Shown here piece after piece: positions 6,068-46,524 of a stretch of DNA of 64,000 nucleotides. The notes under the pieces were generated by a model, which was given only the letters and a program-made list of their open reading frames with translations, had not been told where the DNA came from and did no database searches. The stretch is from Planctomycetota bacterium (lineage in GTDB: Bacteria > Planctomycetota > Phycisphaerae > Phycisphaerales > SM1A02): contig QWPW01000013.1 in NCBI GenBank assembly GCA_003671025.1, positions 13,998 through 77,997 on the forward strand, in the 5' to 3' direction. The position numbers and the translations under genes were made by a program. The stretch's first letter is position 1. Each line of letters begins with the position of its first letter.

Positions 6068-6559
6068 ATGATCTGCCCATTCTGCAAAGCCGACAACGAC
6101 AGCGTGATCGACAGCCGCGAGGCTGATGCGGGCGCGGCGGTGCGTCGTCGTCGTGAGTGCAACCAGTGCAAGCGGCGCTTCACGACCTACGAGCGATTCG
6201 AACGCGCTGACCGTTTGGTGGTGGTCAAACGCGATGGCACCCGCGTTCCCTTCAACGCGGCAAACGTGTTGCGCGGAATCGTGGCCGCGTGCGGCAAGCG
6301 CGCGATTTCCGAAGAGCGCAAGGCGGAGATGGTGGGCGAGGTTGAGGACGAACTCAATCGCGAGTTTGAGCGTGAGGTTTCGTCGGAGGAAATCGGTCGT
6401 CGTGTGGCCGCACGATTGCGTGCCACCGACGACATCGCCTACATCCGGTTCGCGAGCGAACACAAAAATTTCCGCCGCGTCGAAGAGATCGCGCAAGCGG
6501 TACAGGAAGTGCTCGAATCCCCCAAGGATTTGCCCGATCAAACCAAGTTGTTCGAGTGA
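6068..6559 (+). CDS. nrdR: Transcriptional repressor NrdR (zinc ribbon + ATP-cone)
   Basis: MICPFCKADNDSVIDSRE...RRRRECNQCKRRFTTYERFE zinc ribbon followed by an ATP-cone (VVKRDGTRVPFNAANVLRGI). 163 aa. Confidence 0.9.
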   Translation: MICPFCKADNDSVIDSREADAGAAVRRRRECNQCKRRFTTYERFERADRLVVVKRDGTRVPFNAANVLRGIVAACGKRAISEERKAEMVGEVEDELNREFEREVSSEEIGRRVAARLRATDDIAYIRFASEHKNFRRVEEIAQAVQEVLESPKDLPDQTKLFE

Positions 6560-6628
6560 CGCACCGGCGCACGCGTTCGCAGGCGCGGTTCACGCACGAT
6601 GTTCGAGCCGCGCCAACCGCGACGCTCG

Positions 6629-6664
6629 TGCGTTCAGACTTGCGTTCAGATTTGCGTTCAGATT
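6629..6664. repeat. 12-bp tandem repeat x3 (TGCGTTCAGAYT) spanning the frr stop codon
   Basis: Units at 6629-6640, 6641-6652 and 6653-6664. On the minus strand each unit carries an in-frame TGA (6658, 6646, 6634). Confidence 0.9.
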
Positions 6665-29371: not shown

Positions 29372-29860
<489 letters not shown>

Positions 29861-37649: not shown

Positions 37650-38921
37650 TCACTTGAAGAGCGGCGGGCTCGTCGACTTGCTTGTCGTTGACTTGGAAGT
37701 TGAAGTCGCCGAAGACTTCTTCGCGTTCGACTTCTCGTCGTCAGTGGGACGCGTCGTTGGATTCGTCGGCGCGTTGGGATCAGTTGGTGGAACGGTTGGT
37801 GGAACGGTTGGCGTGTTCACAATCGGCGAGCCGGTCGAACCACCATTGCCCGAGCCGCCCACCGCTCCGTTGACGGGAACGCTGCGAAACTCGAGGTTTT
37901 GCACGACGGAAAGTCCCGCAGTAAACGTGACGTAGCGACGCGAACCGCCGGCGCTCGACGCGGTCTTGCGTGGACGCACGGGCGCAAAGGGATATCCATC
38001 GATTTGTCGGTGAATGAAGTCAGGCGCGCGAATGATGAGCACGCCTTGGTAGTAGCGAATGCTCGCGGCGTCGCCGCCCGCATCCTGCCACGCTTCGGGC
38101 TCGCATTGATCCTGAATGATCTCCATCAGTTGATCGGCCTTCTCGGTTTCGGAAGGACGTTCAGGATCTTCGCCGGGGTCGCCGATGACGCCACCGCCGC
38201 CGCCACCACTACCGCCGCCACTTCCGCCACCCGAACCGCCGCCGCCGCCGCCGAATCCACCGCCACCGCCGCCGCCCCCACTACCGCCGCCGCCACTTCC
38301 GCCACCTTGACCGCCTTGATTGCCTTGCTCAAGCGCGGCGCTCAGATTGAAGTCAGGCGCGTTGTCAAAGTTTGGTGGTTCAAAGAGCAGATCGCGCACG
38401 GGATACATGCGCAGTTCGCGCGCGGCGGGGACGGAGAGTCGATCCTTGGTGCCGGCTTCGATGAAGCCTTCGCGAATCTGCCACGTGCACGGAGAATCGG
38501 TTCCGCACATCTCGAGCATGCGCTCGACAACCGAGAGCGCAGCCGCGCCTTCCATCGCCAGCGAAATTTCCATCTCAGGATCGATGCCATCTGCGCCGCC
38601 TTCGCCCGCGTAGCGCACGATCAGTGGCACGCCGAGTTGTTGCTGCACATATTCAAACGCGGTCTTCGCTTGCGTGCGCTCGAAGTTCACCGTGATGTCG
38701 CTGTAGAGAAGTGCGCCGAGCAGTTGCCCGCGACCAACGTCTTGCCGGAGATCTTCCGCGCGCTGTTCGCCCACGGCCTTGATGCGCTCTGAGAGGCCTT
38801 GCGCCTGCGCGGAGGAGGCGGCGAGCATGGCCGGTGCAGCGAGCGACAACACAGTCGCGGTAGTCATAGCTCTGGCCAAGGTAAACGAGCGAAGAGCAAC
38901 AAAGCGTGACGTGCGTTCCAT
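37650..38921 (-). CDS. Secreted protein with a roughly 45-residue poly-Gly/Ser linker and Thr/Pro- and Lys/Ser-rich tail
   Basis: Signal peptide ..TVLSLAAPAMLAASSAQAQG and a Gly run GGQGGGSGGGGSGGGGGGGGFGGGGGGSGGGSGGGSGGGGGG. No family recognised. Confidence 0.5.
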   Translation of the reverse strand: MERTSRFVALRSFTLARAMTTATVLSLAAPAMLAASSAQAQGLSERIKAVGEQRAEDLRQDVGRGQLLGALLYSDITVNFERTQAKTAFEYVQQQLGVPLIVRYAGEGGADGIDPEMEISLAMEGAAALSVVERMLEMCGTDSPCTWQIREGFIEAGTKDRLSVPAARELRMYPVRDLLFEPPNFDNAPDFNLSAALEQGNQGGQGGGSGGGGSGGGGGGGGFGGGGGGSGGGSGGGSGGGGGGVIGDPGEDPERPSETEKADQLMEIIQDQCEPEAWQDAGGDAASIRYYQGVLIIRAPDFIHRQIDGYPFAPVRPRKTASSAGGSRRYVTFTAGLSVVQNLEFRSVPVNGAVGGSGNGGSTGSPIVNTPTVPPTVPPTDPNAPTNPTTRPTDDEKSNAKKSSATSTSKSTTSKSTSPPLFK

Positions 38922-43734: not shown

Positions 43735-45105
43735 TTATAAGCCCGCGAGCGCTGATTCTGGTTCCATGCTCGGGGCAATCTTCTTGCGCATCGACATGAA
43801 GCCGAGCACGCCGATGACGTTGATCGCCGTGCAAATCAGCAGCACCAACGGCGCCATTCCGCGCGGCGCCAAGGCTTGATAGAGCCACCACGCGACCACC
43901 GGCGCGATGACTCCGCGGATTCCATTGAGGGTGACATGCACCGCCATGTATTCGCTGTCGCGCGCGGCGGGAGCGAAATCTTGATGTCCAAGATTCCACG
44001 CCAGAGTTCCGCCTGCGAAGCCGATGCCGAGCAACACCGCGCCGACGTACACCAACGGGACACTCGAGTAATACGACGCGAGGGTGATCGCCGCGCCCGC
44101 GCTGCAAAACGTCCAACCATGAATCGAGCGAAAGCGAATGATGTGGGTGCGATCCATCAACTTGGCCCACAACGGAATTGCCAACGGCATCGTCATGAGT
44201 GGAATAATCGTGGTGACCAGCACGCCGCCGGTGTAGGTCATTTGCAGTTCATCGACCACCACATAGGTAAGCGGCGCCATCAACATGAGATTGCCAAAAC
44301 CAAAGACGCTCATCCACCACATGAACTCGGCGTACAGCTTGTCTTCACGCAAGAGCGTGACCATCGCCATGGGATTGAAGCCAGTGTCCTTCTTGCGACC
44401 ATCGTGTTCCGCACGCTGCAATTGGCGCGCGCGCCGCAGCCGTACCTTGCGATAGATCTGATTTCCCATCAGCCCAAAGAGCGCGAGTAAGGGGAAGAGA
44501 TAGTGATAGTTGTCGGGCGAACTATCCATGGAGACACCAACGATGGCGCCTGCCGCGGCAAGAAAGATGCTCTGCACCGTCGCGAGTTTTCCCGCAACGG
44601 TGGCGCGATTCGCCGTGGGATAGTTGTTGCGCCACACTGCGGCGCGAATGGTGATCACACCGGTCCACGCTATGCGCGCGAGGCCGAGCGCGATGCACGC
44701 GAGGATCAAACCGTTGGCATTACGCGGCACGCAGGCGATGCCCGCGACCATGAGGCATGTCGCAATCTGTAGCCACGAGATGAACGCAACTTTGGGGCGA
44801 CCTCGCGCCAATGCGGCCCAAATGAAACTGGTGAGGTTGGCCACGTTTGGCGCCGCGCCGACCCACGCAGTCGCGAGATCGAGCCAGTAGGGATCAATTC
44901 CTGGTTGTCCCGAAAACGCCTTCTTGATGACGATTGCAATCGTTCCACCTTCGATCGCTCCGAGCATGAGCGGAAGAAACGCCCAACTCACCAACTCGCG
45001 TCCGTAGGTTCGCCGCAGCATCGGCGGCAGTTCCGCAGGATGAAAACTGCGCGCGAATGCCCCGACAAAACGAAGCGGAAGAAGAAGCGGTGCGAGTTCG
45101 CGCAT
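43735..45105 (-). CDS. MFS-like multi-pass transporter
   Basis: 456 aa with 11-12 hydrophobic segments. Family is assigned from topology only. Confidence 0.55.
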   Translation of the reverse strand: MRELAPLLLPLRFVGAFARSFHPAELPPMLRRTYGRELVSWAFLPLMLGAIEGGTIAIVIKKAFSGQPGIDPYWLDLATAWVGAAPNVANLTSFIWAALARGRPKVAFISWLQIATCLMVAGIACVPRNANGLILACIALGLARIAWTGVITIRAAVWRNNYPTANRATVAGKLATVQSIFLAAAGAIVGVSMDSSPDNYHYLFPLLALFGLMGNQIYRKVRLRRARQLQRAEHDGRKKDTGFNPMAMVTLLREDKLYAEFMWWMSVFGFGNLMLMAPLTYVVVDELQMTYTGGVLVTTIIPLMTMPLAIPLWAKLMDRTHIIRFRSIHGWTFCSAGAAITLASYYSSVPLVYVGAVLLGIGFAGGTLAWNLGHQDFAPAARDSEYMAVHVTLNGIRGVIAPVVAWWLYQALAPRGMAPLVLLICTAINVIGVLGFMSMRKKIAPSMEPESALAGL

Positions 45106-45265: not shown

Positions 45266-45299
45266 AAAAAACGAACCCGACCAAGTTGGCCGGGTTCGA
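45266..45299 (-). terminator. Rho-independent terminator (minus strand)
   Basis: Minus strand reads CGAACCCGGCCA-ACT-TGGTCGGGTTCG followed by TTTTTT (12-bp stem, one A.C mismatch). Lies just beyond the hairpin array. Confidence 0.7.
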
Positions 45300-45333
45300 C
45301 GAGTTTAAGTTTGCCGTTGTGAACCGCGTCCCA

Positions 45334-45826
45334 TCCCGCTGGCGAAGCCAGCCGCTCACATCATTCAGCCAACGGCTATCCCGCTGGCGAAGCCAGCCGC
45401 TCACATCATTCCCCTGGCGAAGCCAGCAGCTATCCCGCTGGCGGATGCCAGCGGCTCATTCAGCCGGCGGAGCCGGCGGCTCACTCGCGGATGCCAGCGG
45501 CTCATTCAGCCGGCGGAGCCGGCGGCTCACCTCATATGCAGCTGGCGAAGCCAGCGGCTAATTCCGCTGGCGGATGCCAGCGGCTCATTCAGCCGGCGGA
45601 GCCGGCGGCTCACTCACGGATGCCAGCGGCTCATACAGCCGGCGGAGCCGGCGGCTCACCTCATATGCAGCTGGCGAAGCCAGCGGCTAATTCCGCTGGC
45701 GGATGCCAGCGGCTCATACAGCCGGCGGAGCCGGCGGCTCACCTCATATGCAGCTGGCGAAGCCAGCGGCTAATTCCGCTGGCGGATGCCAGCGGCTCAT
45801 TCAGCCGGCGGAGCCGGCGGCTCACC
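45334..45826. repeat. Tandem array of about 18 short GC-rich palindromes in 83-bp (and 46-bp) higher-order units; REP/BIME-like or structured RNA
   Basis: Modules are GCTGGC-GAA-GCCAGC, CCGCTGGC-GGAT-GCCAGCGG and GCCGGC-GGA-GCCGGC. CTCACCTCATATGC recurs at 45526, 45655 and 45738, with a related CTCACCTTAC at 45821. No unique spacers. Confidence 0.85.
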
Positions 45827-46114
45827 TTACGGATTGCCAGAAGTCGACATGATCGGATAAGGGCTGAGTCGGCTTGGTTGATCGGTGAGCCAGACGCGGC
45901 CCAGATCGTCGGCGGCGGAGCGGAGATCTTGGTTCGCGTTCTGCGCCCAATTGCTCTGCTGATCCACGGGTCGCTCGGAGAGTCCCGCGAGTTCCGGCGT
46001 CAGGTTGCTGTTGATCGATTTGAAATCCGTCGCGTATGGATCAGCCTTGCAGCCCGTGAGCGCAAGAGCGAGGGCGGCAGACGAGAGAACGATAAAGGTC
46101 GTATTGCGAGTCAT
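45827..46114 (-). CDS. Small lipoprotein
   Basis: 95 aa. Signal peptide plus lipobox FIVLSSAALALALTGC. Confidence 0.55.
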   Translation of the reverse strand: MTRNTTFIVLSSAALALALTGCKADPYATDFKSINSNLTPELAGLSERPVDQQSNWAQNANQDLRSAADDLGRVWLTDQPSRLSPYPIMSTSGNP

Positions 46115-46524
46115 GAAAGCTTCCTCTAAGTCGTCGCATCATGTGGGAACGAGGCGCGCTTGTCAATCGCAGATCACGCGCGGAGTACACTCAATCCATC
46201 ACGCCGCGAGACCCTCTCGGGCGGGGTGTCAGGCACATCGCCTCGAGCCTTGCTTAACCCCAAGGGATCGACAATTTCCGCGACGAAAATCAGGCCTCCA
46301 TTGCGCACGCGCTCTGAGTGGAAGGTTGGGCTCGATGGATGTCGAACCCACGTAGCATTGGGGTTCGAGCGCTCGTCCCTGACCATCGTTGAGTTCTCAC
46401 AAACTCATCGTTTTCGGCGCGTTTACGCACCGATTCCCTCCCGAGTGGGTCACGCGGCGTGAGCGACAGACACGAGTTTGCGCAGCAAACCTCACACGTT
46501 GATGCGCGTGCAATCACGCGGTGC

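What the first reader, a model, noticed from the sequence alone, without database searches (positions are those of the whole stretch)
45266..45826. 500-bp array of about 18 GC-rich mini-hairpins in 83-bp higher-order repeats, between a lipoprotein stop codon and a strong terminator
Seen in sequence:
- From 45334 to 45826 the DNA is built from three palindromic modules: GCTGGC-GAA-GCCAGC, CCGCTGGC-GGAT-GCCAGCGG and GCCGGC-GGA-GCCGGC. Short CTCA-type linkers join them.
- CTCACCTCATATGC recurs at 45526, 45655 and 45738, and a related CTCACCTTAC sits at 45821. This gives near-identical units of 129 (83+46), 83 and 83 bp. Older, more diverged copies fill 45334-45525.
- The array begins at the base after the TAA of the small lipoprotein gene (45827-45829, minus strand).
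- On the minus strand it is followed by a canonical terminator at 45266-45299 (12-bp stem, then TTTTTT).

Inference: the array is probably transcribed, either as a roughly 0.5-kb structured 3' UTR or as its own RNA. I see three options:
1. REP/BIME-like extragenic palindromes amplified in tandem.
2. An RNA element that stabilises the mRNA or binds a protein.
3. A CsrB/RsmZ-type sponge. Read from the plus strand, about a dozen loops expose GGA or GGAU, the core of CsrA/RsmA binding sites. Against this, the terminator orientation favours minus-strand transcription, where the loops read UCC/AUCC/UUC.
Basis: partly seen in the sequence, partly recalled or inferred. Interest (0 to 1): 0.68.

Follow-up and report, generated by a model that had tools for sequence, protein, structure and literature searches.

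The report
Hairpin minisatellite in lipoprotein 3' UTR
The repeat array is real: a strain-variable run of 19 short hairpin-forming units that grew by repeated duplication of the end of a small lipoprotein gene and sits in that gene's 3' untranslated region, so it looks like an ordinary bacterial tandem repeat rather than a regulatory RNA sponge.

Summary
**Observation: confirmed.** Window 45335-45824 (minus strand) holds 19 head-to-tail units of 21-32 nt. Sixteen form 6-8 bp GC hairpins. They are organised in 46-, 83- and 129-bp higher-order blocks. The array lies between the lipoprotein stop codon and a strong minus-strand terminator.

**Distribution**
- The units occur nowhere else in the 64-kb window or in 186 kb from relatives.
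- Thirteen same-species assemblies carry the same array with 4-11 units, some with assembly gaps.
- The truncated units match the gene's own last bases plus stop codon. The 82%-identical relative has a different 23-nt repeat, also derived from its gene end.
- More distant relatives carry, in the same slot, a dispersed 37-nt REP/BIME-like hairpin element. It occurs in both orientations and at other loci.

**Best reading:** a locus-specific, stop-codon-seeded hairpin minisatellite, co-transcribed as 3' UTR. Any effect is probably generic: an exonuclease barrier or partial terminator, as shown for the E. coli REP cluster REP325.

**Rejected or open**
- The CsrA-sponge idea is not supported.
- A true REP family with a RAYT (REP-associated transposase) gene cannot be excluded without the whole genome.

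**In passing:** window 46196-46463 (+) is a probable divergent 6S RNA that Rfam misses.

The parts
46138..46166 (-). Sigma-70-like promoter of the lipoprotein gene (TTGACA, 17 nt, CATGAT)
   Evidence: Found by the consensus scan. TTGACA, CATnATG and the GAGGAAG Shine-Dalgarno sequence are conserved in 18 orthologous loci.
45827..46114 (-). Small lipoprotein gene (95 aa; lipobox LTGC; conserved C-terminus LSPYPI.STSGNP)
   Evidence: ORF. Twenty-one homologs found, with an invariant G-C lipobox and C-terminus in the alignment. No Pfam or NCBIfam family matches.
45526..45824 (-). Young part of the array: units 1-11 arranged as [C B A][C B A][C b][C B A]. These are 83-bp and 46-bp higher-order blocks, 99% identical.
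   Evidence: The R2 covariance model built from the units hits them at 27-41 bits, all on the minus strand.
45335..45525 (-). Older, more diverged part of the array: units 12-19 (C, b, C, B, A', A'', half unit, A''). The last units are shared by all same-species assemblies.
45613..45633 (-). Truncated unit b (TGAGCCGCTGGCATCCGTGAG). It copies the gene's last bases plus a stop codon. A second copy lies at 45484-45504.
   Evidence: Alignment with the gene end CTGGCAATCCGT(A/G)AG-TGAGCC.
45299..45334 (-). Unique spacer between array and terminator (contains CAACGGCAAACT). It is conserved in the 82%-identical relative, which marks the ancestral 3' UTR.
45266..45298 (-). Intrinsic terminator: 12-bp stem, 3-nt loop, then TTTTTT
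   Evidence: folding energy -23.4 kcal/mol.
43735..45105 (-). Downstream MFS transporter gene. It is the next gene in conserved synteny and lies about 160 nt after the terminator.
   Evidence: Pfam MFS_1, E = 5e-12. Synteny shown.

Best explanation
**What it is.** The array is a locus-specific, hairpin-forming minisatellite. It lies in the 3' untranslated region of a conserved small lipoprotein gene, between the stop codon and the gene's own intrinsic terminator.

**How it arose.**
- It began as a tandem duplication of the last ~12 nt of the gene plus its stop codon (shown by sequence).
- The duplicated segment acquired a complementary arm and became a 6-8 bp GC hairpin (inferred).
- The array then grew by slippage or unequal recombination of 46-, 83- and 129-bp blocks. 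The youngest copies are 99% identical (shown).
- Copy number and unit order differ among assemblies of the same species (shown, but partly confounded by short-read collapse).

**What it does.**
- It is transcribed with the lipoprotein mRNA from the conserved promoter and ends at the conserved terminator (inferred from anatomy; no expression data).
- As RNA, each unit folds at -10 to -17 kcal/mol.
- Any effect is probably generic and independent of sequence. A stack of hairpins would slow 3'-to-5' exonucleases after cleavage, add partial termination before the MFS gene, or both, as reported for the E. coli REP cluster REP325.
- It may equally be nearly neutral.

**Context.** The same slot is a recurrent sink for repeats in this clade. 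There is a 23-nt repeat in the sister species, and a dispersed 37-nt REP/BIME-like element in more distant species.
For: **Anatomy**
- Sequence, ORFs, promoter and terminator.
- All 16 full units hit by the R2 model are in one orientation and confined to 45333-45824. The next best hit in the window scores 14.9 bits (E = 0.16).
- No R2 hits in 186 kb from 33 related loci.

**Origin at the gene end**
- The truncated units align base-for-base with the gene end, stop codon and first unit.
- The L001 23-nt repeat aligns with its own gene end including the TAA.

**Same-species variation**
- Thirteen same-species or near-identical contigs carry the same unit types, with 4-11 units where the array is complete.
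- They differ in block order and in point variants.
- Four have N gaps inside the array, and one contig ends inside it and another just downstream.

**Ancestral 3' UTR**
- The promoter is conserved in 18 loci.
- The terminator and pre-terminator spacer are conserved in L001.

**Hairpins**
- Energies are given.
- The stems of units A/B (GCTGGC/GCCAGC) and C (GCCGGC/GCCGGC) differ by a compensatory T-A to C-G change.
- The older units fold slightly better on the sense strand because of G-U pairs.

**Functional analogy**
- REP325 is reported to act as an mRNA stabiliser and a partial terminator (bioRxiv 10.64898/2026.03.23.713779, read).
- Tandem reiteration of REPs together with flanking DNA, and REP ends that supply stop codons, are described in PMC3733652.
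Against: - There are no transcript data, so co-transcription and any effect on stability are inferred.
- The strong terminator hairpin alone could protect the 3' end.
- The sister species has non-hairpin repeats, and distant orthologs have none. This argues against a needed function and for near-neutrality.
- Only 64 kb of the source genome was available. A low-copy dispersed family of about 100 copies per genome would be missed in 64 kb with a probability of roughly 0.3.
- Differences in copy number among short-read assemblies may partly reflect repeat collapse.
- The direction of descent (gene end to unit, rather than unit overwriting the gene end) rests on conservation of the SGNP C-terminus across the family. 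It was not demonstrated directly.
Confidence: 0.6

Rival explanations
1. This is an ordinary REP/BIME cluster. The units belong to a species-specific REP family that is dispersed elsewhere in the genome, mobilised by a RAYT transposase, and merely amplified at this site.
For: - The units are 21-32 nt GC palindromes with a constant 5' head (TGAGCC or TGAGCG).
- Relatives carry a bona fide dispersed hairpin family at the same position. It has covarying stems, occurs in both orientations, sits at other loci, and forms BIME-like mosaics.
- That family shares the TGAGCGG head with the oldest window units.
- Tandem reiteration of REPs is known (PMC3733652).
Against: - No unit occurs outside the array in 64 kb.
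- No unit occurs in the flanks of same-species contigs or in 186 kb from relatives.
- All units are head-to-tail, not alternating.
- There is no GTAG or CGTC tag.
- The R1 model of the relatives' element does not detect the window array, even at E<=10.
- The units are visibly derived from the gene's own end.
- No Y1 transposase was found among the 17 window ORFs scanned.
Confidence: 0.2
2. This is a selected, rapidly mutable expression dial (a contingency locus). The number of hairpins would set lipoprotein mRNA half-life or read-through into the MFS gene. Recombination between the gene end and the truncated units could also recode the C-terminus.
For: - Unit number and order differ among strains.
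- The stop codon is TAA in some strains and TGA in others.
- The truncated units carry a 1-nt deletion relative to the gene end. Recombination there would change SGNP* to SGIRE*.
- Repeats recur in this slot in at least 12 distinct orthologous loci.
Against: - There are no expression or phenotype data.
- The variation may be neutral, or an artefact of assembly.
- The lipoprotein C-terminus is invariant in all same-species contigs seen.
Confidence: 0.1
3. This is a CsrB/RsmZ-type sponge RNA made from the plus strand, with GGA or GGAU exposed in about a dozen loops.
For: On the plus strand the loops read GGA, GGAU and GAA, and that strand also folds well (z = -6.8).
Against: - No plus-strand promoter or terminator flanks the array, and the only strong terminator is on the minus strand.
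- No Rfam sponge family matches at the gathering threshold or at E<=10.
- GGA loops are not conserved in any other species at the orthologous site.
- A plus-strand transcript would run antisense into the lipoprotein gene.
Confidence: 0.02
4. This is an independent minus-strand RNA, or a decoy for an unknown protein that recognises UCC/AUCC/UUC-loop hairpins.
For: There are many near-identical hairpins with only three loop types, and the sense strand folds slightly better.
Against: - No separate promoter lies between the stop codon and the array, because the array starts 2 nt after the TAA.
- The hairpin type is absent from the sister species and from all other relatives.
- Unit number is unstable within the species.
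Confidence: 0.05

Closest known systems
E. coli BIME/REP clusters in 3' UTRs, e.g. REP325 between yjdM and yjdN (bioRxiv 10.64898/2026.03.23.713779)
   Same: Both are several GC-rich hairpin units in tandem between two co-directional genes, transcribed as 3' UTR. REP325 is reported to stabilise the upstream mRNA and partly terminate transcription before the downstream gene. [quoted passage not shown]
   Different: E. coli REPs are dispersed in hundreds of copies, alternate in orientation within BIMEs, carry a GTAG tag and are linked to a RAYT gene. The window units are single-locus in the DNA seen, all point the same way, carry no tag, and derive from the adjacent gene's end.
GTAG- and CGTC-tagged REP superfamilies (Di Nocera et al. 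2013, PMC3733652)
   Same: Both have 5-8 bp stems. In both, clusters are made by tandem reiteration of units together with pieces of flanking DNA, and elements abut or supply stop codons. These superfamilies are also reported in Planctomycetes/PVC.
   Different: No GTAG or CGTC (or their complements) occurs anywhere in the array, and dispersal was not seen.
The 37-nt hairpin element of related species, defined here (consensus GTTTGAGCGGTCGCGGCTGCGGCCGCTCCCTYTGGTG)
   Same: It occupies the same slot right after the orthologous stop codon. It shares the TGAGCGG head with the oldest window units, has a GC stem with a 3-4 nt loop, and occurs in tandem copies.
   Different: It has a fixed 37-nt length, a UGCG loop and a conserved YTGGYG tail. 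It occurs in both orientations and at other loci. Its covariance model does not detect the window units, and the window-unit model does not detect it.
Mycobacterial MIRU/VNTR intergenic minisatellites (own knowledge: Supply et al. 1997)
   Same: Both are head-to-tail intergenic repeats of tens of bp, abutting the stop codon of the upstream gene, with copy number varying between strains.
   Different: MIRUs occur at about 40 loci per genome and are not simple GC palindromes.
CsrB/RsmY/RsmZ sponge RNAs
   Same: Both contain many short hairpins in one RNA.
   Different: Sponge RNAs have their own promoter and terminator and GGA loops on the transcribed strand, and they are conserved as genes. None of this holds here.

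Membership tests
REP/BIME (REPIN-RAYT) elements | Short (20-40 bp) GC-rich imperfect palindrome that forms a stem-loop | tested here: met
   Sixteen units have 6-8 bp stems and fold at -10 to -17 kcal/mol.
REP/BIME (REPIN-RAYT) elements | High copy number, dispersed over many intergenic regions of the same genome | tested here: inconclusive
   No copies lie outside the array in the 64-kb window, either by mismatch search or with the covariance model and filters off. However, 64 kb would miss a family of about 100 copies roughly 30% of the time. The whole genome was not available, and the one genome-contig scan was wasted on a pattern that was too degenerate.
REP/BIME (REPIN-RAYT) elements | Neighbouring elements in alternating or inverted orientation (BIME, REPIN) | tested here: not met
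   All 16 model hits are on the minus strand, head-to-tail.
REP/BIME (REPIN-RAYT) elements | Conserved terminal tetranucleotide tag (GTAG or CGTC) | tested here: not met
   GTAG, CTAC, CGTC and GACG are all absent from the array. The head is TGAGCC, TGAGCG or TAGCC instead.
REP/BIME (REPIN-RAYT) elements | Cognate RAYT (Y1 transposase, PF01797) gene in the genome, usually flanked by REPs | not testable with these tools
   None was found among the 17 window ORFs scanned with Pfam. The rest of the genome could not be searched.
CsrB/RsmZ-type protein sponge RNA | Own promoter and terminator on the strand that exposes GGA loops | tested here: not met
   No plus-strand promoter or terminator flanks the array. 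The terminator and promoter that bracket it are on the minus strand.
CsrB/RsmZ-type protein sponge RNA | GGA-loop hairpins conserved at the orthologous locus, or a match to known sponge models | tested here: not met
   Rfam gives no hit at the gathering threshold. At E<=10 it gives only unrelated weak hits. The relatives' repeats have UGCG/CGCA loops or no hairpins.
CsrB/RsmZ-type protein sponge RNA | csrA/rsmA gene present in the genome | not testable with these tools
   Only 64 kb of the genome was held.
CRISPR array | Identical direct repeats separated by unique spacers of similar length | tested here: not met
   The units abut each other and the 'linkers' are themselves repeated, so there is no unique spacer.
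Bacterial minisatellite / VNTR | Head-to-tail tandem units at a single locus, with higher-order repeat blocks | tested here: met
   Tandem Repeats Finder periods of about 25, 46, 83 and 129; unit map.
Bacterial minisatellite / VNTR | Copy number differs between strains of the species | tested here: inconclusive
   Same-species contigs have 4-11 units against 19 here. They also differ in block order and point variants. All are short-read assemblies, four have N gaps in the array, and one contig ends inside it and another just downstream, so collapse cannot be separated from real variation.

The most novel reading that the evidence does not exclude
The array could be a contingency-type rheostat in a 3' UTR. 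Slippage would change the number of exonuclease-blocking hairpins, and so heritably but reversibly tune the level of a conserved surface lipoprotein and read-through into the MFS gene. Recombination between the gene end and the stop-codon-derived truncated units could occasionally recode the C-terminus.
Probability: 0.1. Interest if true: 0.55.

Novelty: new member of a known kind. Interest (0 to 1): 0.3.

Why it matters
The array itself matters little. It adds one more example of intergenic hairpin repeats in a 3' UTR, from a poorly studied lineage found in freshwater metagenomes.

Three points are mildly useful:
- **Visible origin.** In two sister species, different arrays grew independently from the same seed, the last bases of the gene plus its stop codon. 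This shows how a REP-like hairpin unit can arise locally without a transposase.
- **A repeat-prone slot.** The same 3' UTR position is filled by unrelated repeats in at least 12 distinct orthologous loci. That makes it a natural system for asking whether 3' hairpin load is selected.
- **Assembly and typing.** The array breaks or gaps short-read assemblies and could serve as a strain-typing marker.

The by-product, a divergent 6S RNA missed by Rfam, is of practical value for annotating this clade.

Tried and rejected
1. **Genome-contig scan with the degenerate pattern AGCCGCYGGCN{0,1}TYCGCCRGC.**
   - None of those loci encodes a homolog of the lipoprotein or the MFS protein.

2. **The search for related loci with the 18-sequence alignment A1.** It failed because the alignment had no conserved stretch. 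The run was repeated with alignment A2.

3. **Homology between the window units and the relatives' 37-nt element.**
   - The R1 model of the relatives' element finds nothing in the array at E<=10.
   - The R2 model of the window units finds nothing in the relatives.
   - Only the 5-7 nt head is shared, so common descent remains a conjecture.

4. **Rfam.** There were no hits at the gathering threshold. At E<=10, only weak GC-hairpin noise appeared in the array, the best being Betaproteobacteria-1 at 28 bits against a gathering score of 49.

5. **Plus-strand ORF 45491-46129 (212 aa) across the array.**
   - It runs antisense through the lipoprotein gene.
   - Its frame shifts with the 83-bp period.
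   - The sequence is not conserved in any relative.
   - It was rejected as a gene.

6. **CRISPR.** Rejected because there are no unique spacers.

7. **Base-pairing between the neighbouring conserved RNA and the array.** No complementarity of 10 nt or more was found.

8. **Identifying the organism.**
   - Accession searches in papers found nothing.
   - Cluster look-ups gave no names.
   - Sample names and JGI sources suggest freshwater metagenomes. One search shows an RHS/dockerin neighbour gene in a relative.
   - Planctomycetota is a guess and was not tested.

9. **Treating the upstream conserved element as a new RNA class.** Revised after a sub-threshold 6S match in one relative.

Full report
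**1.

- Window 45335-45824 is a tandem array. Tandem Repeats Finder reports period 83 (2.5 copies, 99% match), period 129 (2.9 copies, 92%) and a base period of about 25 (17.5 copies).
All copies lie inside the array, against 0.46, 0.01 and 0.00 expected, and no shuffle reaches these counts.
- The landmark strings are at the stated coordinates.
- Read on the minus strand from the stop codon, the array parses into 19 head-to-tail units of 21-32 nt:
  - C: TGAGCC-GCCGGC-TCC-GCCGGC-TGAA
  - B: TGAGCC-GCTGGC-ATCC-GCCAGC-GGAA
  - A: TTAGCC-GCTGGC-TTC-GCCAGC-TGCATATGAGG
  - two truncated 'b' units: TGAGCCGCTGGCATCCG(T/C)GAG
  - four diverged units next to the terminator.
- The order is [C B A][C B A][C b][C B A][C b][C B A' A'' h A''].
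- Sixteen units are complete hairpins (-10 to -17 kcal/mol each). A covariance model built from them (R2) recovers exactly these 16, all on the minus strand.
- The lipoprotein ORF ends at 45827-45829. A 12-bp-stem terminator with T6 lies at 45298-45266 on the minus strand.

**2. The array belongs to a conserved transcription unit**

- The 95-aa protein is a real, conserved lipoprotein. It has 21 homologs, with an invariant lipobox Gly-Cys and an invariant C-terminus. No Pfam or NCBIfam family matches it.
- Its TTGACA-17-CATGAT promoter and GAGGAAG ribosome-binding site are conserved in 18 orthologous loci.
- The synteny is conserved: ABC ATPase, ABC-2 permease, a 498-aa protein, the lipoprotein, an MFS transporter, then ribosomal protein S1.
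- In the closest other species (L001, lipoprotein 82% identical), the terminator and the CAACGGCAAACT spacer before it are conserved, but the DNA between stop codon and spacer is different.
- So the ancestral 3' UTR was short, and the array is an insertion into it, upstream of the terminator.
- It should therefore be transcribed with the gene on the minus strand. This is an inference from anatomy, not a measurement.

**3. Where else the units occur**

- There are none elsewhere in the 64-kb window, by mismatch search or by the R2 model with filters off. The next best hit scores 14.9 bits, E = 0.16.
- There are none in 186 kb from 33 related loci.
- Thirteen contigs from the same or nearly the same species carry the same unit types at the same place. 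These contigs encode an identical or at least 90%-identical MFS protein.
- They show only 4-11 units, in different block orders and with private point variants.
- Four have N gaps inside the array, and one contig ends inside it and another just downstream.
- This fits a hypervariable minisatellite, but collapse in short-read assembly cannot be ruled out.
- My attempt to test dispersal in whole genomes failed.

**4. Origin**

- The truncated b units align base-for-base with the gene's own end. The gene end reads CTGGCAATCCGT(A/G)AG|TGAGCCGCCGGC, and unit b followed by unit C reads CTGGC-ATCCGTGAG|TGAGCCGCCGGC.
- In L001 the slot holds 4.5 copies of a different 23-nt unit, TCTGTTCGGACAAGCCGTAAACT. 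It aligns with that species' gene end including the TAA, and folds only weakly.
- Two sister lineages therefore expanded different arrays from the same seed, the stop-codon region.
- In the window lineage the unit acquired a complementary arm. Stems A/B and C differ by a compensatory change (T-A against C-G).
- Blocks of 46, 83 and 129 bp were then amplified, and the youngest 83-bp copies differ at 1 of 83 positions.

**5. What more distant relatives have**

- In species whose lipoprotein is 59-70% identical, the stop codon is followed by 1-6 copies of a 37-nt element, GTTTGAGCGG-stem-UGCG-stem-CCTYTGGYG.
- Its 9-bp hairpin shows real covariation. There are 17 double-change cells against 4.8 in shuffles (0 of 500 reach this), and the slid controls give about 1.
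- A model of it (R1) finds copies in both orientations and at other loci. These lie upstream of the lipoprotein gene in L147, and after the stop codon of an IscA-like Fe-S gene in L159 and L164 (Pfam-checked in L159 only).
- There the copies alternate with a second element type, and a MITE-like insert with terminal inverted repeats interrupts the cluster in L159. This is a REP/BIME-like organisation.
- R1 does not detect the window array at E<=10. Only the TGAGCGG head is shared with the oldest window units. Descent of the window units from that family is therefore possible but unproven.
- The most distant orthologs have a plain terminator and no repeats.
- Overall, at least 12 distinct orthologous loci carry some repeat in this slot.

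**6. Mechanism**

- Best-supported reading: a locus-specific, stop-codon-seeded hairpin minisatellite that is part of the lipoprotein 3' UTR.
- What it does is not shown. By analogy with REP clusters, a row of stable hairpins would block 3'-to-5' exonucleases and could add partial termination before the MFS gene. REP325 in E. coli is reported to stabilise the upstream mRNA and partly terminate before the downstream gene (bioRxiv 10.64898/2026.03.23.713779).
- The unit type is species-specific, unstable in number and absent from the sister species. Any effect is therefore likely generic, and near-neutrality is a live possibility.

**7. Rivals**

- *A true REP family with RAYT.* Not excluded, because only 64 kb of the genome was seen. 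Several points argue against it: uniform orientation, no GTAG or CGTC tag (tags defined in PMC3733652), no copies elsewhere, and the visible local origin.
- *The CsrA-sponge idea.* This fails on strand signals, on Rfam, and on the absence of GGA loops in every other species.
- *An independent minus-strand RNA or protein decoy.* Unlikely, because the array starts 2 nt after the stop codon and the hairpin type is not conserved.
- *CRISPR and the plus-strand ORF.* Both rejected.

**8. Seen in passing**

- The 268 nt at window 46196-46463, between the 498-aa gene and the lipoprotein promoter, are far more conserved than the flanking proteins. They are single-copy in every syntenic relative.
- They fold into a covarying structure: 49 pairs, 96% of cells paired, and 22 pairs with double changes against 11.8 in shuffles and 5-7 in slid controls.
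- The plus strand is favoured. Its alignment fold is -55.3 kcal/mol against -43.0 for the minus strand, with 76 G-U pairs and 8 A-C mismatches against 30 and 15.
- The window copy has no Rfam hit even at E<=10, and 13 relatives have none at the gathering threshold.
- One distant relative gives a full-length sub-threshold match to 6S/SsrS RNA on that same strand: 27.8 bits against a gathering score of 46.4, E about 6e-4. It aligns the invariant ACCCACCU...GGGGUUCGAGC block.
- This is most likely a divergent 6S RNA with lineage-specific insertions. The 70-aa ORF called there in public annotations is probably spurious.

**9. Verdict**

The finding is real and more than chance, but ordinary in kind: a new member of the family of bacterial intergenic hairpin tandem repeats. 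Interest is about 0.3.

Noticed in passing
window 46196-46463 (+ strand): A 268-nt noncoding element that is single-copy and strongly conserved upstream of the lipoprotein gene in all syntenic relatives. Its structure covaries: 49 pairs, 22 with double changes, 96% of cells paired. The window copy has no Rfam hit even at E<=10, but a distant relative (L153 4640-4793) gives a full-length sub-threshold match to 6S/SsrS RNA (27.8 bits against 46.4) on the same strand. It is probably a divergent 6S RNA with extra hairpin insertions that standard annotation misses.
   Followed up: yes
window 46174-46386 (- strand): A 70-aa ORF is called as a gene in the same-species public contigs. It lies entirely inside the conserved 6S-like RNA on the opposite strand. 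Conservation there is at the nucleotide level with no codon periodicity, so the gene call is probably spurious.
   Followed up: partly
L147 4527-4647, L149 5730-5835, L151/L152, L159 568-961, L160, L164 1890-2175, L166 226-260: A dispersed 37-nt hairpin element (consensus GTTTGAGCGGTCGCGGCTGCGGCCGCTCCCTYTGGTG; UGCG loop; covarying 9-bp stem). It occurs in both orientations and alternates with a second 44-nt element (TTGAGCGCTCGCAAC...GCTCGCTTTGGYG) right after stop codons. This is a REP/BIME-like family without a GTAG or CGTC tag. No RAYT gene was looked for.
   Followed up: partly
L005/L006 ~6440-6660, L141 5460-5700, L142, L147 ~5570, L152 ~410-590, L159 740-905: Repeats of about 110-160 bp bounded by inverted GGGTGCCC...GGGCACCC ends (MITE-like). 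They are inserted in or next to the REP-like clusters of relatives, and several metagenome contigs end there.
   Followed up: no
window 45827-45829 compared with L131, L132, L167-L169, L171-L175: The lipoprotein stop codon is TAA followed by GG in the window and some strains, but TGA followed by G in others. The junction with the first repeat unit is therefore itself polymorphic within the species.
   Followed up: partly
window 45827-46114 (-) and homologs P0001-P0021: A conserved family of small lipoproteins (about 95 aa; invariant NLTPE, LSP.P and a G..P C-terminus) with no Pfam or NCBIfam model. In one group of relatives (L159-L166) the same domain forms the C-terminal half of a protein of about 195 aa in a different gene context, with no repeats and no 6S-like RNA nearby.
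   Followed up: partly
window 29429-29678 and 38189-38306: Long trinucleotide-type repeats inside GC-rich ORFs: (TCG)n of about 65 copies, and CGC/CCG-rich 12-24 nt periods. They are probably low-complexity acidic or Gly/Ala/Pro-rich protein segments. They were not examined.
   Followed up: no
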